Shown: piece by piece, positions 14,176 through 61,725 of the stretch | How the letters are laid out: every line of letters begins with the position of its first letter | Position numbering within the stretch: the first letter of the stretch is position 1 | Origin: Hydrolagus colliei | Lineage: Eukaryota | Direction of reading: 5' to 3' | NCBI GenBank assembly: GCA_035084275.1 | Contig: CM068756.1 | Coordinates: forward strand, 9,238,001 to 9,302,000 | Length of the DNA: 64,000 nt | Position numbers and translations under genes: made by a program | The notes under the pieces: model-generated | Told to the model about the DNA's origin: nothing | What the model saw: only the letters and a program-made list of their open reading frames with translations | The model's database searches: none

Positions 14176-14224
14176 GCCAATGATCTCTCATTTTCCCTCG
14201 TATATTACATTGATCTTAAAGTTT

Positions 14225-20644: not shown

Positions 20645-20832
20645 TCAATTCCTGGTACAAGGAGAGCGGCCCTTTCGTAACAATGCCTTCTCTGCACTGT
20701 GCAGAGCCATCTCTGCGTACGGCAAGATTTCCATCCCCATTCGGCTTTGGCTACGGGAGCGAGTATTTCGCAGAAGGGTCGGGAAACTGTTGTGCTTACG
20801 AGCACGCCTATCCTCACTCGTCGATTTGCCAC
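20645..20832 (-). CDS. sowah: Probable terminal Sowah coding exon: (C)GKSTSEDRRARKHNSFPTLLRNTRSRSQSRMGMEILPYAEMALHSAEKALLRKGRSPCTRN*
   Basis: Strong acceptor tatttttcctttctccag|GT; phase 1 matches the previous exon; open for 61 codons to TGA at 20645-20647; locally GC/CpG-enriched like an exon. Confidence 0.8.
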
Positions 20833-23567
20833 CTGGAGAAAGGAAAAATATTGATTTGGGAGGAGAATAGTCTTTTACGGAGCAGAGAATTGTATTTAAC
20901 TGTTTTCATGCACTCCCGTGTGAAAACAGTTCCTTTGTGCATGTTAACGTTTTACTTTCTGGGAAAAGGAGCATTGTGGTGTTTAGTGAACAACAACGAA
21001 CTGCATTTATGTTGCGTCCTTCATGTTGGGTGGACATCTCGAGGTGCTGAACAATCTACCTTGTGCATTGAACAAACGCTTATGAGCATGAAAAAAAACT
21101 CCCAAACTATATGACACTACTGGGCAAACTTTAGTTTTGTAGGTAATAGTTTGGTAGGTTTGTGGAATCTGTGGGTGGTTGCTTTTAGTTGGAAGTGCAT
21201 TGCACTGAGCTGATCAGTATAGCTTTTGGCTGCTGTTATAAAGGGGCCATACATTCCAACAGGGCTGGTGAGGTCGCCTGAGCATTGACCTCCTGTCTAG
21301 TTATTTTTGCCATTTCGTGCTGTTTTGTTGCACAATATCTTATGAGCAGTATTCATCAAAATGTTCATGCCAACCAGTGTGCAAAGTTTCCAAAGTTCTG
21401 TTTACCAAACACTGAATCCACCTGTATGTGTCACGTCACTTCTATTGTAGGCCAATCTGTGCAAGTACACAATGCAATTAGATTTGTTTTACTTGTGTGT
21501 AAGTATCATAATAATAGTCTTCCAGGTTGGAAGCTAAAACTAGGCTTGAATAACTGTATTCTATATACTTACCCAAAGTGTATAATTATCCACTGTATAA
21601 GTAACAGATCTAGGCTTCTGAAATTTTAGATGTTCAAATGGAATCTACACTTAGACAGAATGTAATTAAAATCATAGCCTGCGAGTAAGGTATTTTGAGC
21701 AACTATTGCATGTAATACCTGATTTAAGAATTTAGAAAGTAGGGAATGAGAAAAGCTTCATCATCTACACACGCCTGCAATTTGTCTCTTCCCATCTTAT
21801 TGAATCTTTGAGGCGATTCTGCAAAGCAATTTTTCTGCCCCAAAAGAGCAATGGAAAGAATATGTACATAACCTTAAAACCATTGACCAGGTGTCATAGG
21901 TGTCGGCTATGCAATAACAATCATATGGCCTCGATAGTAAATTCATTAAAACCTTTTCTTATTCTGTCACTTTTGAGGATGAAATATTTCTAATGAAAAG
22001 AACAGCAAACTTTATAAAATATACACACACACGCTCTAAATAATAGATGCATATTCTTAAAAGAAATGCATTGAGCTAGTGAAATAAATACCAACTTAGT
22101 GACAGGCTGTATCCAGAGCAAGTTAAAATCCACGCTATGAGGCCACCTAAATTTTAATTAGTGACATATTTTATTTAGCAATGTGCTGTTTCCTGATTTT
22201 AAAAGCTTAATTTATTTAGTTATTTATTTCTCAACAGCAGAATTCTGACATGAAAAAGATGCAAATGAGGCTGCCTATAATGTCTTATGTAGGAAATTGA
22301 AGCACTTTTGTAATTAAATGATGGAGTAGCAAATTCTTAAAACACCACCATGTCTGCCTGAAATGAAGCTTAAACCTACGCAGTATTTTCTCTACACATC
22401 AATAAGCATTTGAGCTCATCAATAAAAAAAATTTAATAGTACTGTGGACTATACTGACTCGCGCTTAACTATTCAAAGTATCGGCAATTAAACTGTCAGC
22501 TGATAGCAGTAGCCACTTTCCCTTCGATCCGAAATCAGCCATACACACACTAAGCACAGCCTCCAAACAATGCGCTGTTCTGCAATCCATAGTCTGTGCT
22601 GCAGATATTCATTCCATAACATTTGTCTTTCAATAGTTGTTTGCATTCGCAGTGATACCATTTGCAGAACAGATGTAGTTATAGCTATATATCTAAGTCA
22701 TATTTGTTGCACCTTACAATTGCAACTTTGATTTTTTTAAAATCTTAGAACTGACAAAAGGTTGGAGTTCTTTGCTGCTAGTTATGTAGTGCTCAGTTCT
22801 GGTTTCTCTTTGTTTAATTTTTCCATCTTAGTTTGAAACTAAAATGAGTTCTGCGGAGAGACAGGAAACCATCTCATTTGAGTCATCTCGAACCACACAC
22901 AATGAGATCCTGCAGGGTCAGTGCAGTGTGTGTAGAGATTTTGGTATCGAGTGAAACAACTGATATGGGAGTAGTGAATTTCACCCACCTCTCTATTATT
23001 CTCTTTTTTCTATTTTCCCTCTTTACTAAGGGTGTTGCCTTAGAGTTGCCGTTTGTGAATACACTGAACATTCAATGCAAGTCTGAAACTCGGGCACAAG
23101 ACATGAAGCACTTCAAGACAGGCACCAAGCTCTTTTTCTGGCTACAAGTATAATCCTGTACCAACCTTGATGAGTGCAGCAAAACAAATCATTATGAGAC
23201 TGCTTAGAGCACTTACTGGTGAATCTTGTTCTCCACATACTTTGGATCTTGTTTCTGTGATGGCAGCGACACTTATCTGAATAATTTGCATGTTCACTCA
23301 CAGAATACAATACCTCCCTGGAACCTACTGTCTAAAACAAACCTGACAAGTAGGCTTCAAATCAAATCATTTGGACTGGAGCCCTGCACTGGATTTGAGA
23401 AGATAGAATAATTGATCAATGCAGTTGCCTTCAGCAAAGTGTGAAATGTTCACGTTGTTTGCATCAGGCAAAGTCTGGCATGTTACACTAATCTATTAAA
23501 TGGTTACATGCAAGTCCTGGAACTTGCTGACAACAGGTAATACTTGACTCAGTGCTCAATAAACTTT

Positions 23568-23886
23568 GGATAGGTCTGTAGGTCAGTGGTTAGAGCACTC
23601 GCCTTACAAGTGTGAGACCTGTGTTCGAATCCAGGCAGATCAGGCAGAAACCTTGGGCAAGTTTCCTTGCTCCACACGTCCAATAATAATCCCTCCAAAA
23701 AAAAACACAATTATAAAATTGGTCGTTCAATCCACGACTGTTTGTGGAACACTGCTGTGCGCTATTGGCTGCCGCGTTTTGCCCACAAATATAGTCAATT
23801 CACTTTACAGTATATTTCTGCGAAGTGCTTTAAGATGTTGATAAGATGCGAAAAGTGCTATATCAAATGCAAGGATTATTATTATT
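23568..23886 (+). mobile_element. Full-length tRNA-derived SINE
   Basis: tRNA-like head gtaggtcagtggttagagc...gttcgaatcc, family body and (ATT)n tail. Confidence 0.9.
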
Positions 23887-26836: not shown

Positions 26837-26932
26837 ATGACTGCAATGAAGCTGGCTTGAATAAATCTTCACTCCCTTTCCAGTAGTGCAGTGGCATCTT
26901 CCCATCGTAATCCCTGATGTTTGGTTTGGCAT
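26837..26932 (-). CDS. sowah: Sowah coding exon (96 nt, phase 1-1): (N)AKPNIRDYDGKMPLHYWKGSEDLFKPASLQS
   Basis: tttttttttccag|ATGCCAAACC...CAGTCAT|gtaagt; completes the second ankyrin repeat (NIRDYDGK resembles SOWAH xRDxSGK). Confidence 0.9.
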
Positions 26933-29900
26933 CTGGAAAAAAAAACACTATTATTAGGAGTAAAAGCTACAATTAACAATACACATTGGACATTTTGACT
27001 GATTTTCCACTTCCAGACTAGTCATTTTTCCATTAGATTAATAATCAGATGTTGGGATCATCCCCTTCCAAACAACATAAATCTGAGGCAGCCACTGGAA
27101 TCCTGACATTTCTCTCACACTCTCTTTAGGAGACCACCCAAACGACCACAGCAGGCCGTATACTTGCTGACTTCATTGCTGCTTTTCCCAGTGTTCTATA
27201 GGAACGCCAAATACCTCCATAATGCATTGCAACACGATAGGATTTTAGCACTTAAAATCAGCACAGTAGAGGTTATATTTTGAAAGTACAGTAATAAAGC
27301 AGCTAATACATAAGTTACCAAAGCTTGCTAAGGCTACAGTGTGTGATCCAAAAGGATTTATGGTAGAATAAGAGACTGAAAGCTAATTAAAGCACAACTA
27401 AAGAGCTTAGTGATTTAATTAGCAATCCTGCATAAAACCTGTAGACCATTCACTGATGAAACAGTTTGGTAAAACAATTTACACTTATATAGTGTCTTTC
27501 ACATAGGAGGAATATCTGAAGTGCTTAATAAAGGCAGAGTGTGAGGCAGATAGGGGCTATAGAGAAGGTGACAAGCAGAGTCAAAGAGAAGAATCGTTCT
27601 ATGGGATTTGAAAGTAAACAGGTAGGGGTGAGGCAGATGCATTTCACACAAGCCAGTTCTAGAGGGTGTGGGCAACAGGGCCTGAAAGTTGCCCCCAATT
27701 GATTGTTTTTATTCACAACCAAAGACATTATCTTACAAAGACGATTATCCAGAGTCTGGATTGCTAATTAGGATAATGTCCTTGGTCGTTAAATTTCCCT
27801 ATGTTATTGGTGCACTTTCAGTGGTGCAACTAATGGAGGTAGACAAATAGACATTATAGTAGTCTCCTGCTTCATATCACTCTTGACACCCCCTGAAAAT
27901 GTTTACCAACAACTGAGATTTCTTCATTTGTGCTTTGTTTTGTGCTGGATAGGACTTCCTCCATCTCCATGTGTTCATCTGAGCATCCTGGCTAACAATA
28001 CCCCAAATAAAAATTGGTCTTTCCCCTCCTCGCTGGTTTGGGACATTGCTGTGTGCAAATTGGCTGCTGCATTGTGCAGTAAAATCTAGTTAAGTACTTA
28101 ACTAGAGAGGTTTTGACAATGTAATATGGCACTTTATAAAATGCAGGGTTTATCTGCTCATGTTGTATTGTTGCTACTGTACTTGGGTAATAAAATAGAA
28201 ATATATTTATTATGAGCTTGATCTGTCCCCATGTCAGTTTTGCTAAAATCTATGTTGGGTTTACACCATTGAGGTTTCCTAATACTGTACAGTAAACCTG
28301 TCATGCAGGAAAATGTATTTGCAGATTGTTTTATTTGAGAAGGTTGCTGCTGATATCACTTCCTGTACAAATGCGCACATGTGAAGGAAATTATATCAGC
28401 AGCACTTCCTTTGCCTGCTTGCAACGCATAGGATATACACAGAAATACAACAACCTACATGACGGTTAGGGGTAGGGTTTTGGCCTTTATTTGCTCTCAG
28501 CTCATAACACGTGCTAGGAGAAATGAAACCCAGAATACCACTTTATAACAAGCTTGCCCTGTACTGGTGCTGCAAGATTTGCAAGGCTCGTTATAACAAT
28601 AGCAACTTGATGATGTAACAATACCTTTACGTCGTTGATCGCGTCTTTTTGAGCTGATTCGTTATTTTAAGCTCAACTTGAATACGATCAGAGATAAAAG
28701 CGTAAATGGACAATTGTACCGCAAAGCAATTAGGCAGATCCGGGTACTAAACCTGTACCAATCTCTGCTTTCAGACAATTTACTCTCCTTTAAACTCATT
28801 CTTGGTGTGTCAGGTTTTTTTTGTCTCTAGGCAACAACAGATGATGTCACTACATTGGCATCCATATGTGTGCGCGGCTAGATTTCACAAGTCTGAGGTC
28901 GGCAGCATTGTAAACAGAGCAGGGCCCAGAGAGCACCTATAGTGAGCCTGGCACAAGTCCTCCAGGTACAAGTCTAAACAGGGTCACTGAGAAATGTACA
29001 CCTTGGAGAGCGCTATTAGCATTTAGTCATGAACCTATATAATTGTTTGTTTAAACACTTGTTATTATTCCATCGCTGTCTCTAATCCTCCCGACTTCAC
29101 AGCAGCGGCTCTGATATCGAATAATGAAAGGTTGGGAGTCTCAGCCTAACAAGGCATTACTGACGTTCAACCACTGATGTGCTAAAATCTGTGGTAGCTT
29201 TTTGTTTAAAAAAAAAGTCAAGATCCACAAAGGTAATTTTTACAATCCAAATTTCGCAGTGTAAAATGAGATCTGCTTTGACCTTAGAATATGCCTTCAA
29301 TTCAACAATAATTCCTCTATATTTGTTGCATTTGGCGCATAAGGCTTTAAGCAGTTAATAGCGAGAAGAGTGCACGCAATCTTACTTTGAATATTTTGAG
29401 AAATGTGTCCGAAAAATATTGCCTTGTTTTGCTCAAGCATCTGCAATGCTTCTGCTCAAGGTGTAAGTCAGTGCCAGGCAGTGCTCTGAGGAAGGCTTCA
29501 TTTAAAAGTAGGCTCTAAAGCATGTTTAACTCCTTTGGAGAATAATGTACAAAATGGGACGCTTGTGCAATGGGAAGTGTGGATGTTAAAATAGGATTCA
29601 AATTTACTTCTGTTTATGTGGTAGCTTGAGGTTTAAAATGTGATGCCTGCTTTGACTGAACAGCAATGATTCCAATGTGCATTTCAATCGCAGGCTGTTT
29701 CATGGATAGCTGTTAAATGTAACTGACCACATAGTACAAGAAATAGCAATGCACATGCAAAGCAGGTAAATACCTCCTATGGGTTTTTTTTGCCACTGCT
29801 TTGATCAAGTCCTTAAAGACTGAGGGAAACATAGTTAGAAACTAATTACTGTACCTATCTCGCCTCATTCCAGGTCTTCCCAGGTTAACATGGCTATTGT

Positions 29901-29984
29901 TTGGCTGAAAGGTATCATTGTGACTGACTTGGGGTATATTTCTTCAGTCTTCCAGGAAAATCATCCAGGACATTCTTCATCAAA

Positions 29985-30205
29985 CAAAAATGGCTGGGAA
30001 CATTCAGCAGGTCAAGCAACATCTATGGATAAAGGAAAAGTGGGTCAACGTTTTGCGTCCACAACCCTTCGTCAGAATTAGGGTCATGGACCCGAACCAT
30101 TGACTCACTTTTCCTTTCTCCGTGGATGCTGCCTGACCTGCTGAGTATTCCCAGTGTATTCTGTTTTGTTTCAGATTTCCAGCATCTGCTGTATTTTGCG
30201 TTTTG
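29985..30205. mobile_element. Penelope-like element remnant forming an imperfect inverted repeat
   Basis: ctgggaacattcagcaggtcaagcaacatctatgga...aggaaaagtg pairs with cacttttcct...tggatgctgcctgacctgctgagtattcccag; centre about 30077. Confidence 0.72.
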
Positions 30206-30256
30206 GGCCATTCTTCATGTTTAAACTTCAAGTTGTCAGGCTATTTGACAAAGGAG

Positions 30257-30560
30257 ATTATAATAATAATCCTTGCATTTGATATAGCACTTTTTCACAT
30301 ATTCCAGACATCTCAAAGCACTTCACATAATATGCTGTAAAGTGAATTGACTATAATTGTGGGAGAATCACAGCAACCAATTGCACACAGCAATGTCCCA
30401 AAAAACAGTCTTGGATTTTAGTGAACAATTTTTTTTCTTGAGGGATAATTATCAGAATTGTGGAGTAAAGAAACTTGCCCAAGGTTTTGCCCTATCGGCA
30501 ATCAAACCAAGGTATCTCACTAGCATGGAGAGTGCTCTAATCACTGAGCTACAGGACTCC
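30257..30560 (-). mobile_element. Full-length SINE
   Basis: Reverse complement of the family, from the (AAT)n tail to the head ctctaatcactgagctacaggactcc. Confidence 0.88.
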
Positions 30561-30800
30561 ACAATCATTGCCAAGCCTGAACCTCTCCTCAATTGTGCAG
30601 TTCCCACCAGTTTCTACAATGACAGGTACTTCCATTTTATACAGCACTTTTCATGCCACACAGCAGAATAATGGATTACTGGATACTCATCAAGAGAACA
30701 ACTAGTTCTCCTCTGGAATAACATTCTCCTGGGCCAACAGTTCTCAATGAGCATAAGCTAGTTCTTAGACATAAGCTAAAACTATTTTTGCTTAAACTAT

Positions 30801-31195
30801 CTACCTTTGTTATCCGGCACCCTCGAGACCTGGCCGGTGCCGATTAATCAAATATGCCGGATTTTGAAGCGGCAAGTTGCTGAAAATCCTACCCAGAAAA
30901 TTAACTTATTTTAAAACATACCATATGAATAATAATAGATTAAATAATAACAGAATATTGTATGGATACTTACCAATAAAACATTCCAGCACACTCGGTA
31001 AAATGATTGGTGAAAAAGCATTCCAGCGTTCGGTAAATTTAATAAGTGCACATGCGTGCGCAAAGTAAGCATACCTCAAATGTTCCGGATGGCTGCAGTA
31101 TGAGATCCGGTTGCTGGAATGGTGAATTGTATTGGGAGATACTGGTTGATTGAGCATGCCGGTTGGTTGGGTACCAGATAAACAAGTTTTTACTG
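30801..31195. mobile_element. Tc1/mariner (Tigger/pogo-like) MITE, copy 2
   Basis: High identity to 7326-7678; right end CCAGATAAACAAGTTTTTACTG|TA. Confidence 0.8.
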
Positions 31196-31492
31196 TACTT
31201 TAATCCCAATTTATTTTTCCCCATAATCTTTGCTGTTGTTATTGTTCAACGTTTAGGTTTTCTTATCTATTAGCTATCCTTTTTCGAGTGTTATGATCTC
31301 AGTTAATTGTCACTGGTGGCAAAGTATTTAATATTCTGATAACCCTCTGCTTGAGAAAACAAATTCCACTCTCTGTCTTACCGATCTGTGAGGGGAAGGA
31401 AAAGGCCATAAAATCTACTTTAGATGTTTGCTAGTTTTAATCCCTCTAAAGATTTCCAGTTCTCGATCTTATCGCCAGTTATTCCCCTTAGT

Positions 31493-31496
<4 letters not shown>

Positions 31497-31554
<58 letters not shown>
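31497..31554. repeat. (TC)n microsatellite
   Basis: About 29 uninterrupted TC units. Confidence 0.97.
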
Positions 31555-31556
<2 letters not shown>

Positions 31557-34039
31557 GACTCTCCCTCTCTTTGCATTTACCATTCTCAACTTTCTTTCCA
31601 CACATACCCCTATCTCAACACTGTTCCAGGATATCGATGTGACCTGATTCCTTAATTGGTACGTGCCCACTGTACCACTCTAAAAATGGAACAAAGAAAA
31701 TCCATACATTTATATAAAAAAATACGCACAGAAAATTCACTGAGGTCTCTCCGGGTGCTTGAAATTTTAAGCCTTTCTCACCATCCAGTTCAATGTTAAT
31801 TAGAACATGTCTACAACACAAATTGCCCACCAAATTTGTAACTCACTGTAAAATAACAATAACTGGACGGCTTTGTTTTTTAAAATAATTGTTGTGTGTA
31901 GAATCAACACTTGGATAGAGATTGCCATATAATTATTCATTTAAAAAATGGCAAGCAATATATCTTTGCCCTAAAATAATATTTAACTTTGAACTGTTTT
32001 ACTCCAGTTGTTCATCACAAGTTAAGATACATTTTTTTCAATTTTGAAAACCAAATTCACCGTATTGTTCCTCTTCACTGGATTAAAACTTCTAAACTAC
32101 ATAAGTATTACTGAACACAGCTCCTAAGAACACATTATTTTCAAGGTAAGAACAGATGTTTCTTAATCTACCGGCACCATACATTAGGGTATTCAGATTA
32201 TTCCATGGTATGTTACTGTGAATAACTTACTTGCTCCATCATTATGTGGGTCATTAAAGACATAAGCGAGCTTTTATGCTCTAGTTTCATACAGCTGTCA
32301 GCAGCCTGTGCTGCAATAAGTACATTCTTAGCAAACGCCTAGTACTTCGAAAAATCAAAACAATTCTTATCGCACAACACCCAGAGGATAAGAGTTGTTT
32401 TGTGATGGGGGCTTTACATTTTCCCTTGTTCACAGTTAATTACTGAAATCAAAACATGTAGTGAAACCGCGTAGCTTCTGCTAAGAATAAATCAACAAGG
32501 TAAGTCGAGGGGTCCAAATGGGCAAGGAGGCAGGACAATAAGGGTTATGTTGTTGTGTCCCATGGCTGGGTCACAAATCTGTGATTTAGCGGACGTAACC
32601 TCCACATGTCAGTGTTGCAAAGGTGTATTGGGAGCAGCCTTTCATTCTCATAAACAGGGCAGATTCCAGGCCAGCCTCGACCCACTCATTGTTCACTTCC
32701 TAAAGAAAACAGTCACAGACAGCCGAGGAAAAGAATTATTAGGGGTGTTGGAATAGGAAATGTCCAGAGTTCCTGACATATTATGATTGGCTTCGAGTAG
32801 AGGGAAGTGGCTAAAGAGAGCAGCCCTGATGGGTGCTAGGATTGTTCTGTTCTAACGTACACAATGACATCCTCATACAAGCAGATGGTAAAAAATAACT
32901 TTTGCGGAAACCTGCAATGAACTTGCTTTGCTTTCACTCTGGGGACTATTAAGAAAACTCAACTAACGGGGCAGAATATGGAATCAATCTTTTCCTTTTT
33001 AGTTTGTGCTCTTCAAACCCTCTTTAAATGATTCTGTCATCAACATGAAAAGGGGAAAAGCTACAATTTATACAACAAATTAGGTAATTAGAGGCAGAGT
33101 ACAAATGACAACTCTTCCTTAATACCCGAACAAACATTGTAACTGGACTCACTGGTTTATAAGGAAATAGCCACTTTAGTGAACTACATCCACCGCTGAC
33201 AAGTACTCAAGCAACTATAATGAAAGTAGAAAGAGTTGAGAACTATAAATGTTCCACAGCTTTCAGCATGTGAAACAGCCATATGATACTGCCACAGATT
33301 TCTCATTTATTCTCAGTCTCAGTAGGAATAATGGGCTAAATTTCCAGTGTTATGTTACATTAATTAATACCTCTGTGTCAATTAATACTAATAGCCAATT
33401 TAGTGACCTCATGATATTTAGCACATCAGCTGGTCCAGTGTATTCATTACTGTGAAAAAATGCTGCTGTAATATAATAATTATTCTGGTAATTTGTATGC
33501 TGATGTAGTGCTTTAAAAATTCATATGAACAATGTATATTTAGATGTCAGATTATTACCCTTTGTTTTACTCTTTTGGTAATGCCACAAGACGTTTCTAT
33601 TCAGAAACACGCTTGTTCCTGATCGGGGGCCTGAGAAATTTGTTCAGCACTGGACCCTTAAATTGTTCGGCAGGTAGCCCTTTAACCACAAACGCAGAGA
33701 GAATTTGCGTCAGTTGGAAAAAAAAATTCAAGATTTTTCCAGATGTCCCGGTGAGCCAGTTATAAACCCTGCACCTGTTTCTAAGACAAACTATCTTGTG
33801 TGACTTCCTTATTCATGTGTTCTGCCAGATGTAGAAAAAAGGACAACAAATTACTAAAAACTTGGCACTATTTTCCTACCGAAGAGGTTGCACTTGTGTC
33901 TCCATGTGATTCCAGGAAAATCTAAAATGAAAATGTTCCAATCTACAATCTAGGGTCTTCAAGCTTTGATCTATGCCAACTTGCACTAATAATTTTGGGG
34001 GGAATTAGTTAAGTAATAAGTAGATGCAACCCTCCAGGA

Positions 34040-34369
34040 GAGAGTGTGCATTCGATCCAGAAAAATGGACATTTCTATGCATCGGTGGCATACATACGTG
34101 GATAATATGTGATAATATACAGATAGATAGAGGGGGATGTGAGAGAGACACAGATAGAAAAACACAGAGATGGAGAGAGTGAGAGACACAGAGAGAGAAA
34201 TATATTTACCTCCTGAGGAGATAGGCCCTGAATGCGCGCGCACCCGGAATGCGCGCACTGCGCGCGCATGCGCTGTACTAAAAACCCGGAAATATCGATA
34301 TTTCGGTGCATCTCGATATGAGCCCATCGATATATCTAAATCGGAAAATTTCCATATCGACGGACCCTG
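34040..34369. mobile_element. CpG-rich fragment resembling one end of a hAT-like transposon
   Basis: Minus strand begins CAGGGTCCGTCGATAT with repeated ATCGAT/ATCGA subterminal motifs; no matching second TIR found. Confidence 0.45.
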
Positions 34370-35903
34370 GCTGACAGTAGTAAATTTTGCGGAGTTGTGA
34401 CATTTGTATCCATCGTAGGCCGACATTAACTACTCCCGTCTACACTGCTAGGGACTGTATGGACCTATGCTTGCCAAGTGCACTCTCTTGAGGAAAAGAA
34501 TTAAGCAGGCGATGTGATAATTATCACCTGTAATCATTTTCACATAACACATTTTCTCTTCCATTCCAAAATACTCCAGGAAATAAAATGGAAAATTCCT
34601 GAATGGAAAGCTGAATGGAAAGCGGTCAGTAGTGACAGGGATCAGACAGACCCATCAGCACCTAATTCCTCCCTATTTGTGGATAAAAACAAAAACAAAT
34701 ACTTGATGCCACACTGCTTTCTTCAATAAACTATCAAGCAAACATTTGACAAAATGTAGAAAGTGATGGAACTATTTTTTTTGCAATTAACACCAGATGG
34801 CTCCCACTGGGCATGTTGGCGAGAATATTTATTTCTGGTATGATTTTATGGAATGATCAATAATTATCCGGCATTCTGTATGAGCCAAGGGAAAATACAC
34901 TGGAGATGAGGAGCATTGCAGTGCGAATGTGAGAGACAGATTCTATCCTTTGTACATGGGCCCACATTTCTGTATGTTTAACAAACTTGTGTCCACATGA
35001 GAGTACATTCAGCTACTCAGTGAGTCTTAACTAGTCCATTTGGGGGCCATTTCAAGTATGGAATTCACATAAGGTGAAACAAGCTCATAAGCCAGTGCTA
35101 ACCAGGTGCCTAGGGTACCACTTCAGTGCAGAGTGACAGGCAGCTGTCAGAGTGTGGGGGGAGGGCGCAAACTGAGGTTGCTTGGCACGTTGGGGACAGC
35201 ATTGCTGACCTGTACATTATTATGCTACTGGTTGTGTTCTCGGCATTGTTAACTCATCTATTTACCTGATCCAAATATAAATATGATCTACACAATTAAA
35301 AAAAAATCAGAATCAGAGTCCAAACTCCCATCTTCATTCAAATATCACATGTGTCCCTGACCAGCACAGAAGCGTTCTTGGTAAACTAGTTGTGCGTTTA
35401 TCGGGGTTAACATGTTGCCGCTCACAGTTCAGATTGCTGACAGATCAGGCTGAACGGGTGAGGTGCATTTGAACATAAGTTAGCTGCCTTTTGTTTGTGC
35501 CAATCGCTAATACACTTGAAGTGAAACAATTGTGCAGGGTAATGTGGATATGTGTGATTTTAAAGAAAAGCTAAACGTAACCCTTGATATTTGATTGAAT
35601 CCACCATTTCCACTTACAAGGAATGAATCAACCCTGGCACACAGCTGATTGGACCCGATTAGTAATGATTTCATTTTATCTGTATTTAGTGTCAGGCAGT
35701 TCACATTCACCCACATCCTTCCAGTGGTCTTTAGATTTGTCAGCACTGTAAACAATTGTGTCATCGATTTAGAGAAAGACTTTGGAACAAGTTCAGCATT
35801 TTCCACGTCAATAAAAACAGTTCATTAATGTGAAAGACAAGACATTTTCAGTTAAATTCTACACTCACTATCACCAAAAATAGGTTATTTTTATCTTTAA
35901 AGT

Positions 35904-35992
35904 TATAATAAACCTTGCGGTTGATATATGCTTTTCACATCTTGTAGATGTCTCAATGTGCTTCACAGAATATACTGTAAAGTGAATCGACT
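35904..35992 (-). mobile_element. SINE 3' fragment
   Basis: cttcacagaatatactgtaaagtgaatcgact family motif. Confidence 0.78.
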
Positions 35993-44930: not shown

Positions 44931-45133
44931 AAACTATGAATACCATGAACATTTGCACCAGTAGATTTGTAATGGATATCATATTTTGGGAACATTGCTA
45001 CCCTTTTTTCCAGTATTGGGTGAACAGAACCACTGCAATTTCTGCAGCTTCTGGCTTTCATTCTTGTGCCATTACATAATATGTAGCAGCAGCAAATTGC
45101 AGAGTCTAGAAGTGTAAAGTTTGAAGGGGGAAA

Positions 45134-45221
45134 TGTTTTGCCCACAAAATATAGAGTCAATTGTGGAGTGCTTTGAGACTTGAAGACGTGATGAGGCGCT
45201 ATATCAAATGCAAGGATTATT
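45134..45221 (+). mobile_element. SINE tail fragment
   Basis: gcccacaaaatatagagtc...gcgctatatcaaatgcaaggattatt. Confidence 0.78.
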
Positions 45222-46822: not shown

Positions 46823-46965
46823 TAATAATAATAATCCTTGCATTTGTTATAAAGCCTTAATACAGATTCTAGATGTCTCAAAGCACTTCGCAGAATAATC
46901 CTGTAAAATGGATTGAGAGTGATTTCGTTTGTTTTTAACTGGGTAAAACGCAGTAGCCGATTGTA
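46823..46965 (-). mobile_element. SINE 3' fragment
   Basis: taataataataatccttgcatttg...gtctcaaagcacttcgcagaat. Confidence 0.75.
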
Positions 46966-47698
46966 CTCAAGAGTGAGATCCATGGCTAAGTTTTCTCTCT
47001 CCTAACTCGGGCACTAAAATTAATTAGTGTTGCACCTGCTGCCCTGTGATGGGGTGAGTTGGGACATCCTCATGATGTGAAAGGCACTCTATAAATGTAA
47101 TTTTGTTATTTTGTGGTTGTAGCTGATGCTCCATTTGTTTACCAATTACTTTAGAACTGGTTTAAATAGAACTGTTTCTCAAGACAGTGAGCTGAATGCA
47201 GTTGTTTCTTAGCTATGATACACATCTCTTTTCTCCGAGCTTCCCCAGCCTCTGGGCAGGTCCAGAGCTAACTAATGCTAACTAGTGAAATTGGCCTGAA
47301 GGCAAAACCAAAGCTGGTCATCTAACATAGTAGTCGATTTTTAGCTTGTAGAACCTTCCCCAAAAGTGAACCTGGAGGCATTGCTCAAAGCAAGAGCCAA
47401 AACTGGTGCACATATAATCTGTATGGCCCTCTCTTCTGCATTGTTTAGTGGGGCCTTTGCAGCTTGTAGTCAGTTTTTCAAAATACTGATTCATACATCA
47501 CCTTCCTTGCCCTATTACCTGCCCTATGCAATGAGGCAAAGAGAACACCCGCAACCCCTCGAATTGCCTGCCAGCAAATGTAAGAGTTTGTACAGGGAGG
47601 CGATGTTGCATTCTTCACCAGGAATGGCTTTTTGATGCCTAGGCTATATTGTTGCCTATCTTGAAGGAATCTCTCCTCTTTCCTTCCCCCAACCAAAG

Positions 47699-48090
47699 CA
47701 ACAACAGGACGTCCCAAGGCGCTGGACAGTCAATGTTTCAGACTCGAGCTGGGGTCGGGGACAGCGAGGGTGGAGGGAAAGGGAAGGATTTGGGTTAACC
47801 GATGGGACAATCGAAGAGGAGGGTCTTGAGGCAGGACTTGAAGGAGGCTAGGGAGGGGGCGAGGTGGAGGGACTGCGGGATGGAATTCCAGAAGTTGCGG
47901 GCATAGTGGCTGAAAGCTTGCCCGCCAATGGTGGGGCAGGGGAAATGGAGCAGCCTGGAACCTGTTGAGCAGAGGGAGGTGGACAATTTGGTAGGGGGTG
48001 AGGAGGTCGCAGAGGTAGGTTGGGGGTGAGGCCATGGAGGGCTTTGAATCTGAGGACCGGGATCTTAAATTGAATCCTCTGGGTGATGGC
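47699..48090 (-). mobile_element. L2 LINE 3' fragment
   Basis: Minus-strand translation IGGQAFSHYARNFWNSIPQSL...SLASFKSCLKTLLF; tail ggacgtcccaaggcgctggacag. Confidence 0.87.
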
Positions 48091-51000
48091 ACAACAACAA
48101 CAATTTACATTTAGATTCCTCCTTTCCAGGGTACTGTCATACAGTACATTACATGTGCAGAGACGCTGGGATCAATTCACAACAATTAGATTTTATCATC
48201 AGTCACTTAGTTGACATCACTGGAAACCTAACCCTCATAACTGGTTGTTAGGTGAATAAGACTTACTTTATTTTATAAAATTATGCAGTAATACAGGCTT
48301 GTTTACATCATTTGCAGGGCTGATAATTGCGAAAAAATTTGCTGTCATCACACAATATTTAACAAAGTGTACTTGAGGACAACTTAATGTGCCCACACTG
48401 TCAAAAGTGTCAGCATCCCAGTAATGAGTGTCTGACACAAACAGTTAGGGAAATAGCACAATTACTGAAATATCCTGGAGGAATAGTATGCATTTTCATG
48501 AGTGTCTCTGTGTGACAGTGAGTGCTGAAGAAGGCAGCTTCTCGTTGCCAGTCGAGTTGGCAAAAAATATGCTTTCTTCCCTGAAAGACAATTAGAATCA
48601 ATTAAATGAATTAAATGGAGCTCTACATGGTTAAAATATGGGCAGAGGTTCAAATTGTTGGTATTTAGAATTATCACAATCTTGTGGCTGGCAAAATGTG
48701 GCCTGATTGTGCATTTAAGTCAAGTGTGCAACCTAATGAAACAGACATAACTTTTCACCCTAAATGTCTAGTGATTTGTTTTCTTGGGGTGATCAACATT
48801 TACTCTTGGATCTAACCTAAGAAATTTGAAATCTCATGAATACCTGACCAAAAAGAATGTACCACATAGCTCCTGTATAATGGCTGTTGCTGGGCAATTG
48901 ATATTGACGCACAATTTCAATGGGCAATTGAAAACAATTAAACAGCTGATGTATAACTGTTTTGCAGTTTAGTACTATTATTTGATTTTATTAATGATAT
49001 TAAACATCTAAAATGTAAAAAACACACCTTTATTTATCTCTTTGCAAAAATATCAGGTGTCTTAGTGCTTGGGTGAGTGTGTTAAAATGAAGCAAATAAA
49101 CTACGCATTCATTTCTGAAACCATAGCCCACAGTGTGGAAATACTGATCAAACTTTTAATCACAATTATTGTACCATTACTAATCCTTTTGATTCTTACT
49201 GTGCCTCTACATCTTTCAATTACATATCTTACAACCCATAAGATGCTGGGAGCACAAAGAAGAGCAAATACTGCAAGATTGAAAGTCTATTACCGTAAAG
49301 TAAGTTTTGTTCATATTAATGAATTAGAGTACTACTATATAAATGCCTTTGGAGCATTTTTTTTAAAAAGCCACAAAACTTTTTTTAAATAACACAAAAA
49401 GAGAGACTTTACTTAAAATAATTTATATTGTTTTAGATAATGTTTTAAAATGGCTGTTATCAAGCTTATGTTTTGAGCTTGCTCTGCTCTACACCATGCT
49501 GCAAAGTTCCACATTCCTGCCCCTTTAGTGAGCTGATGTATTTCATGTGCCATGAATTTTTCAAAGGCACAGAATCTATCATGAAGCAATTTTCCTCCCC
49601 TCCTCATTTACTTTTAAAGGGTTAAACAGGCTATTTATTTGGCTGTCAAGTTTCCGCATCTCAGCTTTTCAAGACGTCTAGCCTAGTTTTGTTCCGTATC
49701 GACACTTGTCTGCATGGCCCGTTGTTGTTAGCCTCGTGTAATATCCATGACAATCGTGTTGTGGCTTTCAGCGCTCTGTAGTGCTAAATCTGAGAGGCCA
49801 TTTCTAGCCCGTAAAGGGCTTTATTTATGTGTATTTGAAAGAGTCTGGTGAAGGGCCCTCTTCTTAAAATCCTCTTCAGCGGGTCATCGTATTTTCAAAA
49901 GGCTTTAAATGAAGAGGCAGTGATCAGTACTTCCATCACGTTCTAATAGACTGACATGAGCATTTGGATTTGAAAGAGGGGGAAAAAAGTGACGCAGATT
50001 TGCCCTAAATTGGCCTGACGCACAAAGCAATGAGTGCAATTGACTGGCACACTAACCCTGCACACCCCTTCACTTCTAACCACTGCTGCACAATAAGAAA
50101 GCCGTGGGAAGCTGCTTGGGAGCACAGCATATCCATTTTCATGGCCCATATGGAAATTTTGTTTTGTGTACAGAGAAAGTGTCTGATAACAGTGACCTTA
50201 ACTGCCATATGTGTTCAGTGAATAGTAAACAGAGCAAAGCAGTCCAGCTCTCTGACCCTTAGCATATGGGCATCTATTCCGGAGGAGGTTTTTCACAACA
50301 CATCCGCTTTCACTGCCATCTTGCCTGGTGCCCAAGGGATTTCACTAGATTTGTTAATGAATTGCTCTATTGACTCATATCTGAGCTTGCCTCATTAGAG
50401 TTGAAGAACAAAATTTTTATCTGTGTTTCCTTCAAGGAGACCAGAATGCCTCTCTTTGTCAGGAGGTGTTAAATCCTGAGAGCCATCATGTGTGTTGAGC
50501 TGATTTATTTTGTCAGTTGAAGAATGTTCTCTAGTGTTCATTGATGCTGAAGTTCCACTCCTGGCCTCCTCAGATCAACCTTCTTTTTTTTGCCCTCACT
50601 CTCTCTTTCCACAAGTTGGAAAAAAAAAGTTTTTAAAAGCCCTGCCTGGTTTACAAATAGCTAAACATGTTGTCACCCTGGTGACGGCTGGCTTCACTGT
50701 GCCAAGTGCCAGTGTGTACAGCAAGTCTTCTCAGCACATCACCACCTGTCACGACATCCTCTTCAATGTGGTCACAACACAAGTACAACCTTAAACCATT
50801 CATCCTCTTTCTCCCACACCACCACTTCATCCCCCCACCCCCACCCACCAACTCAAATCACACTACATTTTAACGTGTTAATCTTAATAAACAATGTTTG
50901 CAAACAGACTGTGGATGAAAAGACAAATGTCTCTCCTTGTGTGCCAAACATACAGGGATTTGGGATTTTTGGCTCCAGACCATGTAAGTGAATGGCATTT

Positions 51001-51567
51001 TTCAATTTAAATACACATCAACAATGCAAACATCCATTCTTCTACGTTGCTGCCTATGGTATCGTATGACACCTGGGATTGTGCAGTACACCACAAACTA
51101 ATTGAGGGGTTCAGATGATGTCGTAAAACTGTGAAATGGAAACTGAAGTGATTTATATGATCATTTGAAGCTTGCAATTAAGTTCCAACTTTGTAACCTG
51201 CCATCAGGGATCACTTGATTCATATAATATAAATACTGTAATTATAGCCTTCATTTGGGTGTTTAAAAGTTGTGCTCGATTCAGCTGTGTGGGTGTGCTG
51301 AAACAATCCTGTTGCCCAGGATTTTTTGGGAGTTGATTTTCTGTTTCCACCCTTCAATGTTATTTGAAAGAAGCACTGTCAAGTTCAATGATTGCCAATT
51401 TGGTACTATTTATTACGAGAACACTGGTGTTTCCATTATAATGATGTAGGGACAAAAGCATTAAGGTGAACAATGATTTTGAGCTAACCAAAGCACAATT
51501 GGTATTAAGTAGCAGATACTCTGCTGTTACCAAGTAGTTTTGGATTGTGATATAAAACCCTTTAAAA

Positions 51568-51731
51568 ATAATTCTTGATTTTGATATAGCGCTTTTCATT
51601 CATTCTAGACGTCTCAAAGCGCTTCACCTAATATATTGTAAAGTGAATTGACTGTATATTTGTTGGTGAAACATGGCAGTCAATTGCGCACATCAGTGTC
51701 CCAGAAACATTCGTGGATTGAAGTGACCAAT
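51568..51731 (-). mobile_element. SINE 3' half
   Basis: gatatagcgcttttca...caattgcgcacatcagtgtccca. Confidence 0.83.
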
Positions 51732-54700
51732 GTATTATGTTATGCTATGACACACAACCAATTGTACAATAGAGAAAACTGAATGACTTGAAGAACACTC
51801 TTGATTGCCTAACCCAGAGAGCTGTTTTGGAAGGTTATGAATTGAAGCTCACAGTATTCAATGCTTTGCGGTATTTCAATTGATTACCGAAATCTGATGT
51901 TTGTCAGTATTTTAATTTGTTTAGAAAATGAAAGCGGGTGCATTGGCACTGTGATGGCACAGGATACTCAGAAATGTAGCCAGACATTCTGCAGGACTGA
52001 AGGTGCTAAAGCAACGTATGGTATTCAATAGGTTTCTGGCAACATATCCTTAGGCTCTGCCAATCTGCTAGCAGATACAGTATGTAGAGTTTGATGGGCT
52101 GACCTGCCCTCTGAATTTCCCATTCCATCTGTGGGAAGCACTTGCCCTCTCTGCGTGGCATCTCCACCAGACAGATAGCATTATCAGTAGACTTCTTCAT
52201 TATTCTTCTGTTTCCACTTGCTGCTGATCACATCCAATGCATAATGGAAGGAAAATGTGTTTGTTTACTCCCAATTTTGCTGAAACATTTGAGTTGGTGT
52301 CACGCCTGCAGATAGCACTCTGGCAACATGGACAGTAAGGACCAACAGGCAATATAATGTTGGGGACTTTATGGTTTAGTGCAATCCTATTTCTGTACCA
52401 TAGATGTGCAAACGTCACTGGCACCGATCAAAAGTGCAAACTGTATATAATCTTTGAAGGACACTGCCATAAACTTGATATCCCCCCACCCCCCTAATTC
52501 AGTGAATGCAGCACAAAACAGGAATTAAAACTGGGACCTTTCTTACCTGTATGACTCATTACCATCCCACTGACATTACATGAGTCATTGGTGCAAGATA
52601 CATTCCTCCCTGGGGAGGAGGGAAAGTAACTTTGAAGAGGAAAAATAGTTACCAATGGGTTTCAAACCGTAATACAATCTCACCAATGCTGATATTATCT
52701 GAACTGCTCGATTGAATTACTGACATGTAACTCAGTGCCAACCATATAATACACTTTAATTTATGGTTTCCCATTTCACTATTCAAGTTAATTCCTATTA
52801 ATACAGCCAGTAAATTTAGCACTACCACTATATTTTGTCATTCGGACTGGAAATTCCTGCAGCCAACAGATATGCCAATGTACATAAGCAATGTACTTTA
52901 TTCAAAGTGGGAACCTCATTGTATGATTGGAAGAGTGAAGCAATGGGTGCAGATATATTCTGAACTACATACCAAAACATTAATGGGTAGAGCAATCCTA
53001 GTTGAATAAATACCAAACTCTAGGCTTCCTCATCCCATGTAAAGAATGTTATGTTTAGTAACATACATGCTTTAGCTTACAAGCCACTAGTGCAGAGATC
53101 CCACTGGTATAAAGCATTGATAAAACATCCCTTGAATGCATATTTGATCTTATTTACTATATAAAGGTGCTCTCACTCATGTACTTTAAGGTGGCTCTGA
53201 ACTCGTGCTCTTGCTCTACTTGGGTTACTGGTTATAAAAGGTCTGTGGACTTCAAACGGGTACCTGACATGAGTGTGCCAGAGAAAGTCTGTATAGCAGC
53301 GACACAGTAATAGAAACCTTACAAAAACATATGCTGTGGTGCCACAATTCTTTGTCAACTTGTCTTTGATTGGGACGGTTCTAGTTTAGTCTTTCCTTGA
53401 ATTCCTCTTTTAAAAAGTACCGCAACATATGTCTTAGATTTTTATAATAATGGACTCCACAATCGTTATTGTAACTAACAGCAGTAATACAATTTGTGAA
53501 CAGGCTTTGTGATGATCTCTGGGGAAATATGCTGGATGTAAAAGGCGGATAAAGATCACTTTGACGCCCGCATTGTGAAAAAAAATAGATGTGCAAATTT
53601 GTTTCCTGAAATCGTGCCAACATTAGCTGAGTCTCAAAGCTCTGAAAAACTGGGTGATGCTGATTGTACTTTACAGGTTAAAGTTCACTTGCATTTTCTT
53701 TATAAACTGTTGTGGTATTACCATAAGTTTCAGATTTCTGTGCAGTGCGTGTGACGTAAATGAAATACTAACAGCAAAAATGATCTGGGTTGTTTCCCCT
53801 CCCTCAGGGGCTACTGCAGTCTCAATGGGAGGATGCATAAAGGGAAGACTTGCAATCTCCACCCAAAGGCAAACAGACCCTACAAAATTGGTGGAAGCTG
53901 ATGGGAGTTCACACCAAAAACTGTAATTCACAATTTTACTTTTTGACAAGACAACGATTGTTATTTTTTCCCTGTTTATCTCACCGTCTGTGTCCCACCT
54001 CCTGTTTGACCTTGAACCTATGTTTTTCTAGTGGACATTTCATTCATACAACTGCCCTACTGGTGTTTAGTCTGCATGACCTTTTATTCCACCCTCCCCC
54101 CACCCCTCCCACCTTTTGCCTGCTCCCAATTGAGGTTTGAATGCCCTGAAAACTTGGCAGAGAAACTTTGCACTGATGCATGGCAGAGCTGTAAATAACA
54201 ATAGCAAGGTCTGGCTAATTAAGGGAAAATTAGTCCTGCTTACAGGGGAGGCGAGAGCCTTGGAAAAAAAAAGCCGTTATGCTTCAGGAGACTAGGCAAA
54301 TCAACATCTTAATGAAGAGTCAACAACTACTACTGCATTAGCCTATCTCAGCCAATCTGAAGTGCACCAAGGAAGATTTGTGAGACAAATTAGAAAAACA
54401 TTCTATCACAAATATTTAGCTGTAGTATGAGCAATTATCTGATGATACTCCGACTGCCTGCTCTTTCTGTCCCCTGCTTTCCCCTCGGGGTCCCTGTCTT
54501 TGTTAGCTTGCCATGTTGATGTTTCTCAGCTAGTTTTAACTGGTTTGCAATTTATCCCCTGCTTCCCCGTCAAATCCTTGGTTTCGCTCACTTTCATTTT
54601 AAGTATCTCCACTAATAAGGGCAGCAAAGATGTTTTGTTTTTCTGTCAATGCAATTTTGTTGTACTTTACTACTTTCAAGCCTGGACAGTCCCTGTTTAG

Positions 54701-54811
54701 CACTTCAAATATGTGTTAAATTGAGATTATGGAAATGGCAGACCTCACTGGTCTGGGAGGAAAGTGTTTCATAAAGAAACAAGGGTATTAAAAGAGTTGC
54801 CAGTCACTTAC

Positions 54812-54884
54812 TGTATGTGTTGATCAGCAGTAGAATGATGTGTCGGTGACCATGAAGGGCTGCTATATGCAGCGCTGTATAGCC
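54812..54884 (-). CDS. sowah: Sowah coding exon (73 nt, phase 0-1): GYTALHIAALHGHRHIILLLINTY
   Basis: ttgttcttctgttcaaatcctag|GGCTATACAGCGCTGCAT...ACATACA|gtaagt; ankyrin consensus GxT(A/P)LHIAA..GH; phase matches the flanking exons. Confidence 0.94.
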
Positions 54885-58530: not shown

Positions 58531-58533
58531 ATG
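58531..58533 (-). CDS. sowah: Candidate 3-nt microexon CAT (His) of Sowah
   Basis: Minus strand ...ctttgcaccaactcgctcag|CAT|gtaagt; about 70-nt AG-free pyrimidine-rich zone upstream; TACTAAT branch-point-like motif (+ strand 58593-58599); supplies the His of the S-H-G-G-Y motif. Confidence 0.75.
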
Positions 58534-58892
58534 CTGAGCGAGTTGGTGCAAAGGTGTTGGAACCGGGGGAGGGGTAGATAAGAAGACAAGTAATTAGTAC
58601 ATTAATCTTTTTTATGATATCATTTTTCAGACCTATATGATCGTAATGTAAATTAGAAATAAAGGAGGGTTCATGGAAAATAGAATTAATTTCAAGTAGG
58701 TCAATCGCTCTACAATAACTGCATTTCAAGCAGTGTGTAATTTATGGCAACATTTGTCCATTTTCCTGCACGCTGCTGATTACAATGCTCTTGCTCACTT
58801 CTATCAGTTGAAAGTCAGCTTGCCAGATAACATTCTGCACCATAATGAAATTCATTTGCAGTACAAAAACTTGAGTGAATCAAACAAGCGCA

Positions 58893-60946: not shown

Positions 60947-61121
60947 TAATAATAATAATTCTTGCAATTGATTTAGTGCTTTTCACATCTTCTAGACGTC
61001 TCAAAGTGCTTCACAGAATATAGTGCAAAGTGAATTGATTGTATATTTGTGGCTAAAACATGGCAGCCAATTGCACGTAGCATTGTCCCACAAACAATCG
61101 TGGATTGAAATGACCAATTTA
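60947..61121 (-). mobile_element. SINE 3' half
   Basis: (AAT)n tail...ggcagccaattgcacgtagcattgtcccacaaac. Confidence 0.85.
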
Positions 61122-61638
61122 TTTTTGTTTGTTTTTCCACTGCAAAAGCACAGGGTGTATTCCATTTCAGTTTCTGGCTGTATTTCCCACCATAAAATCT
61201 CAATGGATTTAGAAAAGTGGCCAAAAAATGAGGTTACACCAAGTTGTGAATATATTAAATTGAGTCCAATGCTGTCAGCCTAAGAAACTGACTGATTTTT
61301 TACAGAAAACACAAGGTAACCACCAGATCTACAGAACGTTCTCCAAAATAACCACATTAGAACTTTCAAAGTATTTTTGGTAAATTTCCTAAAATAATTT
61401 GACAGTTGCTCTGTATGTGCCTTTAATGATATGCTAAGATGGCATATTTGACAGGTTTGAATGGCAGTCTAGCAAGACCATTATAAAAGCAACGCTGTCT
61501 GTTTTATTGAAGAAAGGTGCTTTTTTTTAAGTAGCCCAGCAAGGGGTAAAAGTATAAAGACAGGGATGGAAAAATAAGAAAACACACTCAGGACTTAAAG
61601 GAGCCAATCAAATGTCAGTTAATGTCACAGTCACTTAC

Positions 61639-61725
61639 AGATTTAACATTGACATCAATGCCAGTTTTAGCGATCATCTCTGCCATCTTCTCCTTGCCGT
61701 GCTTGGCTGCCCAGTGGAGTGCTGT
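61639..61725 (-). CDS. sowah: Sowah ankyrin-repeat gene, internal coding exon (87 nt, phase 0-0): TALHWAAKHGKEKMAEMIAKTGIDVNVKS. Upstream exons were not found in the window.
   Basis: Minus strand tttctcag|ACAGCACTCCACTGG...GTTAAATCT|gtaagt; open frame; ankyrin motif TALHWAAKHG typical of the SOWAH family. Confidence 0.93.

What the first reader, a model, noticed from the sequence alone, without database searches (positions are those of the whole stretch)
20645..61725. Intact intron-containing 'parental' Sowah gene, the type replaced by retrogenes in tetrapods
Seen in sequence: a spliceable ankyrin ORF without internal stops spread over more than 41 kb, including a 27.9-kb intron (26933-54811). 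Established: mammalian SOWAHA-D are intronless retrogenes, while the ancestral multi-exon Sowah is linked to Iroquois genes across bilaterians and was lost in tetrapods. Inference: this window lies next to an Irx cluster and preserves the ancestral gene. The retrogene HGG sequence would record an mRNA that included both microexons.
Basis: partly seen in the sequence, partly recalled or inferred. Interest (0 to 1): 0.7.

Follow-up and report, generated by a model that had tools for sequence, protein, structure and literature searches.

The report
Intron-rich Sowah gene with one-codon exons
This is the back end of an intact, intron-rich Sowah gene sitting head-to-head with an Iroquois developmental gene in a chimaera-like fish, a known ancestral arrangement; its extras are four conserved exons of a single codon each that likely tune the protein's binding loops, and signs that a sister gene with introns survives in amphibians, reptiles and birds, where it was reported lost.

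Summary
Observation confirmed. The window holds the last six exons (minus strand, 61725-20645; intron 26933-54811 = 27,879 bp) of a 15-exon, 184-kb gene that splices GT-AG into 410 codons without a stop, 364/410 identical to a Callorhinchus milii RefSeq Sowah protein. Its start codon lies 5.8 kb head-to-head from Irx5; its introns carry non-coding elements matched in order in the Sowah-less desert beside Irx2. The genome also holds a second multi-exon Sowah beside an Irx7-like gene and four intronless copies, each beside a septin gene. Both multi-exon genes share one 12-nt and four 3-nt exons (G, F, H, G) that encode the hairpins between ankyrin repeats; the retrogenes keep that spacing. Two corrections: this gene is likely a sister, not the parent, of the retrogenes, and 'lost in tetrapods' is too broad, because the other paralog has intron-type models in caecilian, duck, turtles, lizard and newt. 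The core is the published Irx-Sowah block (Maeso 2012; paper not held, seen only through citing passages).

The parts
61639..61725 (-). Coding exon 10 of 15 (87 nt, phase 0/0), one ankyrin repeat body
58531..58533 (-). 3-nt microexon CAT (His), first residue of the hairpin before the GYT motif
   Evidence: 6/6 donor; same exon in C26 paralog; residue present in C. milii XP_007887669.1 and absent in XP_007887671.1
58238..58240 (-). 3-nt microexon GGG (Gly), second residue of that hairpin
   Evidence: 6/6 donor; GGA at the same place in C26 paralog
54812..54884 (-). Coding exon 13 (73 nt, phase 0/1), ankyrin repeat body
   Evidence: exon-sized contigs at raised depth in two runs of a relative
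26933..54811 (-). 27,879-bp phase-1 intron
26837..26932 (-). Coding exon 14 (96 nt, phase 1/1), end of the ankyrin block
20645..20832 (-). Last coding exon (188 nt to the stop), predicted disordered tail
   Evidence: 80% identical to C. milii over 65 aa; low pLDDT in the ortholog's model
63331..63740 (.). Intronic non-coding element with a paralog in the IrxA desert (core 63374-63513, 86% over 143 bp); likely Irx enhancer
   Evidence: only other match in the genome is C2:55,167,442-55,167,584
58578..58879 (.). Intronic non-coding element with a collinear paralog on C2, ending 45 bp before the His microexon
   Evidence: 73% over 142 bp, E 2e-11
39619..39897 (.). Non-coding element inside the 27.9-kb intron with a collinear paralog on C2
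20391..20532 (.). Non-coding element just past the stop codon (presumed 3' UTR) with a collinear paralog on C2; a second at 20083-20151

Best explanation
The window holds the 3' end of an intact 15-exon Sowah gene in the IrxB cluster of a holocephalan fish, likely kept large because its introns carry Irx enhancers, and likely spliced with five microexons that build the hairpin loops of its ankyrin repeats. Shown: gene model, Irx5 head-to-head linkage, paralogous non-coding elements, microexons shared with the Irx7-linked paralog, four septin-linked intronless copies with the all-included spacing. Inferred: (1) the protein (N-terminal winged-helix domain, acidic linker, about three and a half ankyrin repeats) is a binding adaptor; (2) the exons DFNS+G+F and H+G supply the two inter-repeat hairpins, so inclusion gives canonical ankyrin fingers and skipping shortens them without unfolding the repeats (predicted); all-included is likely the main form and skipping a minor regulated one; (3) an all-included mRNA was retrocopied once beside a septin gene before the two vertebrate genome duplications, which made the multi-exon copies redundant and let exons, but not enhancers, be erased from some Irx clusters, as seen here beside Irx2.
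For: Gene model 1,233 nt, 410 codons, 14 of 14 introns GT-AG, 364/410 identity to C. milii. Sowah ATG C23:9,442,526 (-), Irx5 ATG C23:9,448,286 (+). Of 38 AG-NNN-G[TC] sites in the intron pair around the microexons only 2 have a 6/6 donor (CAT, GGG); of 19 in the paralog only 2 (CAT, GGA), same order. Strict sites: 4 in 26.8 kb of the two target intervals against 2 in 155.8 kb of the other eight introns; paralog 4 in 10.4 kb against 0 in 20.7 kb. Of 20 Logan-only proteins listed, 19 carry all five microexon-coded stretches and 1 (P0007, window type) none. AF2: the microexon residues lie between helices (255-260, 288-291) in P0014, and the all-skipped P0007 keeps pLDDT 90-97 over its ankyrin block. 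Tree: retrogenes 100/99, window type 92/96, Irx7-linked type 95/92. Septin head-to-head in 4 of 4. Of 11 unique non-coding matches with E<1e-4 between the Sowah span and the C2 desert, 10 are on the same strand and in order; tblastn finds no Sowah exon there at E 0.5 (two hits at E 0.22 and 0.36 in the next 200 kb).
Against: No RNA of this species was laid, and no read across a microexon joint was seen: one search covers only the 73-nt exon, in a relative, in runs only guessed to be RNA and from one study. Single-residue RefSeq isoforms may be alignment artefacts around 3-nt exons (RefSeq models mostly give five residues at the first joint where Logan contigs give six), so regulated skipping rests on one Logan contig. 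The Logan tally is biased towards inclusion by the query, and only 2 of the 20 are of the window's type. TGC motifs upstream are found for 4 of 5 microexons here and 3 of 5 in the paralog within 60 nt, about what chance gives. The tree has 122 columns, no invertebrate outgroup and sub-95 bootstrap for the window clade. Enhancer activity and protein partners are untested.
Confidence: 0.88

Rival explanations
1. The microexons are constitutive: relics of ancient intron positions that must all be included, and apparent skipping is annotation error or splicing noise.
For: 19 of 20 Logan-only proteins include all; 10 of 10 microexons have consensus donors; all four retrogenes have the full spacing, which needs inclusion in the germ line; no SRRM-type motif enrichment shown.
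Against: One Logan contig (P0007) skips all five cleanly in frame; all five are multiples of three; RefSeq lists every partial combination in several species.
Confidence: 0.35
2. The gene is a decaying bystander kept only because its introns hold Irx enhancers; the frame is still open because chimaeras evolve slowly.
For: The IrxA copy has been erased while its elements remain; a shark model (P0005) and several salmonid models of this paralog are truncated before the ankyrin block.
Against: 89% protein identity to C. milii with all splice sites intact; orthologs with full ankyrin block in many teleosts; exon-shaped coverage in a relative, the two exon differences shown being synonymous third positions.
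Confidence: 0.07
3. This very gene (the IrxB copy) is the direct donor of SOWAHA-D.
For: Shares the full ankyrin spacing and the N-terminal domain with three of the four retrogenes.
Against: The four retrogenes share a 6-residue insertion absent from both multi-exon genes and sit in a four-fold septin paralogon, which dates them before the duplications that made the IrxB copy.
Confidence: 0.05

Closest known systems
Iroquois-Sowah genomic regulatory block (Maeso et al. 2012, PMC3317147; not held, known from citing passages in PMC5803294, PMC12311624, PMC5585340, PMC3342872 and from recall of its abstract)
   Same: Multi-exon Sowah linked to Irx genes, non-coding elements in its introns, exons erased at another Irx cluster, intronless copies elsewhere. 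By recall, that paper already used elephant shark and teleost data.
   Different: The citing passages say the parental gene is pseudogenised and lost in tetrapods; here the Irx7-linked paralog has intron-type models in caecilian, newt, lizard, turtles and duck. Whether the paper describes the microexons could not be checked.
Callorhinchus milii LOC103176098 (XP_007887669.1 and isoforms, annotated 'SOWAHC-like')
   Same: Ortholog: 364/410 identical, same HG joint in isoform X1.
   Different: None of the RefSeq isoforms seen includes the Phe microexon; the automatic name wrongly suggests the retrogene SOWAHC.
Vertebrate SOWAHA-D retrogenes
   Same: Winged-helix (PF25877) plus ankyrin architecture and the all-included spacing at both joints (111 of 120 and 118 of 120 SOWAHA-search hits, the rest mostly unparsed).
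   Different: Single-exon, beside septin genes, with a 6-residue insertion in the second repeat; cannot vary the hairpins by splicing.
SRRM3/4-regulated neural microexons (bioRxiv 10.1101/2024.09.17.613571, passages read)
   Same: 3-12 nt, frame-preserving, consensus 5' splice sites, some with a TGC close to the acceptor.
   Different: Here they come as tandem pairs of single codons; inclusion looks like the common state; neural or SRRM dependence untested; 'sowah' was not found in the supplements searched of two zebrafish microexon papers.

Membership tests
Sowah (sosondowah) family | N-terminal winged-helix domain (PF25877) | tested here: met
   PF25877 precomputed on the 89%-identical ortholog; exon 1 aligns to retrogene N-termini; AF2 helix/strand domain at residues 11-74, pLDDT >90. 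The exons lie outside the window.
Sowah (sosondowah) family | C-terminal block of about 3.5 ankyrin repeats with the family's lead helix and motifs | tested here: met
   Pfam Ank on two window exons; invariant columns with SOWAHA and fish proteins.
Sowah (sosondowah) family | Best hits and tree placement among Sowah proteins, not another ankyrin family | tested here: met
   own-genome best hits are the paralog and four retrogenes.
Irx-linked multi-exon ('parental') Sowah | Intact multi-exon structure | tested here: met
   15 exons, 410 codons, no stop; intron positions and phases shared with the C26 paralog over the ankyrin block.
Irx-linked multi-exon ('parental') Sowah | Physical linkage to Irx genes | tested here: met
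   Irx homeoboxes at C23:9,449,131 and 9,684,653; names Irx5/Irx6 are from my recall of the sequences plus FTO synteny, not from a named database hit. Irx3 coding sequence was not found.
Irx-linked multi-exon ('parental') Sowah | Conserved non-coding elements in its introns | tested here: met
   Collinear paralogous elements with the IrxA desert.
Irx-linked multi-exon ('parental') Sowah | Those elements act as Irx enhancers | not testable with these tools
   Shown for Drosophila in a citing passage; not for this locus.
zebrafish sowah2 versus sowah1 naming | Orthology to the named zebrafish gene | not tested
   No record named sowah1 or sowah2 was returned; the guess 'sowah2 = IrxB-linked' is recalled.
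SOWAHA-D retrogenes | Intronless coding sequence beside a septin gene | tested here: not met
   The window gene has 14 introns and groups apart from the retro clade.
SRRM3/4-dependent neural microexons | Length 3-27 nt, frame-preserving, strong 5' splice site | tested here: met
   (donor strength was also the filter used to pick the 3-nt candidates).
SRRM3/4-dependent neural microexons | UGC motif between branch point and acceptor | tested here: inconclusive
   7 of 10 within 60 nt, 5 of 10 within 20 nt; conserved in both paralogs for the Phe and His exons only.
SRRM3/4-dependent neural microexons | Neuron-biased, SRRM3/4-dependent inclusion | not testable with these tools
   No tissue-resolved reads across the joints.

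The most novel reading that the evidence does not exclude
The ancestral Sowah gene builds both ankyrin hairpin fingers from tandem single-codon exons (DFxS+G+F and H+G), conserved in two paralogs since the vertebrate genome duplications and spliced combinatorially; the retrogenes froze the all-on form; and, against the published account, one multi-exon paralog with this switch survived in amphibians, reptiles and birds, so only mammals (if any tetrapods) depend on the frozen copies. Neither point turned up in eight literature searches, but the key 2012 paper could not be read.
Probability: 0.4. Interest if true: 0.55.

Novelty: new member of a known kind. Interest (0 to 1): 0.38.

Why it matters
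The locus itself confirms, in one slow-evolving genome, every stage of the published retrogene-replacement model: two surviving multi-exon genes, one erased copy whose non-coding elements remain, and four septin-linked retrogenes. That is tidy but known. Two extras would matter to specialists. Tandem single-codon exons that build ankyrin hairpins are an extreme test case for how the spliceosome defines 3-nt exons and whether splicing can tune a repeat protein's binding surface one residue at a time, testable in zebrafish. And a surviving intron-containing Sowah in non-mammalian tetrapods would correct a much-cited example of gene loss. This stretch is also the fish counterpart of the FTO-IRX3-IRX5 desert, so its paired elements are enhancer candidates.

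Tried and rejected
Maeso et al. 2012 was not held under DOI, PMC id or PubMed id; its text and supplements, which may describe the microexons or tetrapod copies, were not seen. Paper searches: Sowah+microexon 0 papers; microexon/3-nt/ankyrin/retrocop 0; sowah1/sowah2/irx7/Sowah/elephant shark 4 listed; sosondowah 56, 40 listed; Sowah+Irx+intron+tetrapod 4; Irx7+tetrapods+Iroquois+lost 1; by listing none treats these points. 'sowah' was absent from 12 of 12 supplementary files of PMC12626424 and 12 of 13 of PMC12626420; long files may be cut. Sequencing runs: no RNA holder listed on record; single-cell run X9 gave next to no coverage of the exon; no read-level test of the microexon joints was obtained. 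The profile search of representatives was swamped by long multi-ankyrin proteins and gave no invertebrate outgroup in its best 150. Rejected microexon candidates: a 2-nt GG 30 nt after the His exon (intron too short, frame shift), a 5-nt candidate at 61820-61816 and a 6-nt one at 55649-55644 (no counterpart in the paralog; not needed once GGG/TTT were found). The first tree lacked the C26 and C1 rows through a coordinate slip and a strict pattern; redone with 37 rows chosen by hand from about 290 proteins. Irx3 and Irx1 coding sequence was not found; not read as loss. Earlier scan findings: three look-ups, nothing. No complex prediction was run: no partner is known.
Full report
Where it lies. 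The window is G000:C23:9,238,001-9,302,000 of a 1.0-Gb genome. Proteins from it are 84-92% identical to Callorhinchus milii proteins, so the organism is likely another holocephalan (inference).

The observation. On the minus strand the window holds exons at 61725-61639, 54884-54812, 26932-26837 and 20832-20645 (stop), with matching phases, and the intron 54811-26933 is 27,879 bp. Two exons pass the Pfam Ank cut-off. Using retrogene and C. milii proteins against 200 kb upstream I found nine more exons; in window-extended coordinates the start codon is at 204,526. The 15-exon model is 1,233 nt, all 14 introns GT-AG, 410 codons, no internal stop, 364 of 410 residues identical to XP_007887669.1. 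In two runs of a relative, guessed to be RNA and from one study, contigs of 74 and 73 nt match exactly the 73-nt exon at depth 52 and 126, against 3-20 for neighbouring contigs; a genome-sized run gives one flat contig. This fits a spliced, expressed exon but is not proof.

Irx linkage. A Homeobox_KN search gave 24 matches, five of Irx type: two on C23 (9,449,131 and 9,684,653), two on C2, one on C26. From recalled sequence features and an FTO exon at C23:8,966,232 I read these as Irx5 and Irx6, Irx2 and Irx4, and Irx7; the names come from no call. The Irx5 start codon (9,448,286, +) is 5,760 bp from the Sowah start codon (9,442,526, -). Irx3 and Irx1 coding sequence was not found; at both expected places there is a 200-N run in CpG-rich DNA, so nothing can be concluded.

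Family in this genome. A search with the 73-nt exon returned 9 matches: itself, an exon on C26, four long single frames on C21, C6, C19 and C1, and three weaker ankyrin hits. The C26 gene has the same intron positions over the ankyrin block and ends about 14 kb before the Irx7-like homeobox on the same strand. The four frames are 455-704 codons from Met; the C19 one is 92% identical to C. milii SOWAHA over the ankyrin region. Each of the 4 lies head-to-head within 17-40 kb of a septin gene, and all share a 6-residue insertion missing from both multi-exon genes. In a 37-row tree (122 columns, midpoint root) the retrogenes form one clade (100/99), the window gene groups with C. milii and teleost proteins (92/96), and the C26 gene with coelacanth, bichir, teleost and tetrapod proteins (95/92). 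Inference: one retroposition beside a septin gene before the two vertebrate genome duplications; the window gene is a sister of the donor, not the donor.

Microexons. Canonical ankyrin spacing needs two residues between the 87- and 73-nt exons. Of 38 AG-NNN-G[TC] sites there, only two have a full GTRAGT donor: CAT (58533-58531) and GGG (58240-58238); of 19 sites in the paralog only CAT and GGA, in the same order. Upstream of the window the same holds for a 12-nt exon (DFNS here, DFTS on C26) followed by GGG and TTT in both genes. Strict sites number 4 in 26.8 kb of these intervals against 2 in 155.8 kb of the other eight introns. Independent support: C. milii isoform X1 reads KS-HG-GYT and X2 KS-G-GYT; of 20 Logan-only proteins, 19 have all five stretches and one has none (only 2 of the 20 are of the window's type, and the query favours inclusion). 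RefSeq models show every partial combination, which may be real or may reflect mis-aligned 3-nt exons. The retrogenes keep six and two residues at the joints in 4 of 4 here and in 111 and 118 of 120 SOWAHA-search hits, so the retrocopied mRNA included all five; HG itself is found in 27 of 120, YG in 62. AF2 models put these residues in the loops between helical hairpins (P0014); the all-skipped P0007 still folds with pLDDT 90-97 over the repeats. That such loops form the binding surface of ankyrin proteins is established knowledge, recalled. An SRRM3/4-type architecture (passages of bioRxiv 2024.09.17.613571) fits only loosely: TGC within 60 nt in 7 of 10 cases.

Why the introns are long. Comparing the Sowah span with 400 kb left of Irx2 on C2, 10 of 11 unique non-coding matches with E<1e-4 are on the same strand and in the same order, five of them in the window (20083, 20403, 39647, 58578, 63374). 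The 63374-63513 element has exactly one other match in the genome. tblastn finds no Sowah exon in that C2 stretch at E 0.5. This is the state expected if IrxA lost its Sowah exons and kept the regulatory elements; enhancer activity is inferred.

Tetrapods. Among the 120 proteins listed of 159, 13 are of the window's type, none from a tetrapod or other lobe-finned fish. The C26 type includes Rhinatrema (XP_029470390-3), Anas (XP_027328625, XP_038022074-5), Pogona (XP_020662685), Chelonia, Dermochelys and, by cluster, Lissotriton, besides Latimeria and Protopterus. Their genome-derived models differ by single residues exactly at the microexon joints, the turtle models carry a 47-residue insert between the G and F sites, and duck and newt models show donor read-through, which implies introns there. 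I did not see these genomes or their neighbouring genes, and no mammal or frog copy of this type appeared in what was listed.

Comparison with print. Maeso et al. 2012 was not held: nothing of it was seen. Passages citing it state the Irx-Sowah linkage, retention of regulatory modules and loss of the parental gene in tetrapods (PMC5803294; PMC5585340; PMC3342872; PMC12311624; PMC5010895). By recall its abstract already names teleosts and elephant shark as keeping the intron-containing gene. The core finding is therefore a new instance of a known kind, already annotated in C. milii. The microexon set and tetrapod survival were not found in searches (listings only; supplements), but may stand in the unread paper.

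Verdict. Real, correctly identified, mostly known: interest 0.38; the two extras would merit about 0.55 if unreported.

Noticed in passing
G000:C23:9,319,811-9,319,822; 9,316,225-9,316,227; 9,312,755-9,312,757 (minus; L003): Three more microexons just upstream of the window: 12 nt (DFNS), 3 nt (Gly), 3 nt (Phe), mirrored in the C26 paralog.
   Followed up: yes
G000:C26:7,099,600-7,135,050 (+), L065/L055-L058: Second multi-exon Sowah, tail-to-head with an Irx7-like gene; ortholog of the type that persists in coelacanth, lungfish, bichir, gar, teleosts, sharks and non-mammalian tetrapods.
   Followed up: partly
P0094, P0143-P0157, P0125, P0136, P0141, P0431-P0432: Tetrapod Sowah models with single-residue isoform differences or intron read-through at the microexon joints, against the reported loss in tetrapods.
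   Followed up: partly
G000:C21:15.44 Mb, C6:12.23 Mb, C19:11.95 Mb, C1:98.65 Mb: Four intronless Sowah genes, each head-to-head with a septin gene; the C21 copy gave no match to the N-terminal exon.
   Followed up: yes
G000:C23 about 9.12 Mb and C2 about 54.97 Mb: Irx3 and Irx1 coding sequences are not visible; each expected site has a 200-N run inside CpG-rich DNA between paired non-coding anchors. Gap, withheld DNA or loss cannot be told apart.
   Followed up: partly
G000:C23:9,132,518-9,133,671 and C2:54,979,284-54,980,434: A 1.15-kb non-coding element 77% identical between the IrxB and IrxA clusters, beside the expected Irx3/Irx1 sites.
   Followed up: no
window 3122-3359, 4089-4382, 6686-6876, 11535-11653, 14063-14344, 18417-18625, 23576-23887, 30252-30554, 35898-35999, 37856-38066, 51563-51743, 60945-61136: About 15 copies of a short interspersed repeat, likely a tRNA-derived SINE; repeats within the window cover 4,259 bases.
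   Followed up: no
window 34142-34359: A GC-rich 228-bp stretch in the large intron is 88% identical, in reverse, to a stretch in an intron of the C26 paralog; probably a low-copy mobile element.
   Followed up: no
window 17267 and 17229 (minus): First AATAAA signals lie 3.4 kb past the stop codon, suggesting a long 3' UTR that would contain two of the paired non-coding elements.
   Followed up: no
P0005, P0009-P0013: Shark and salmonid models of the window-type gene often stop before or inside the ankyrin block, probably because gene finders fail at the microexons, possibly through decay.
   Followed up: no
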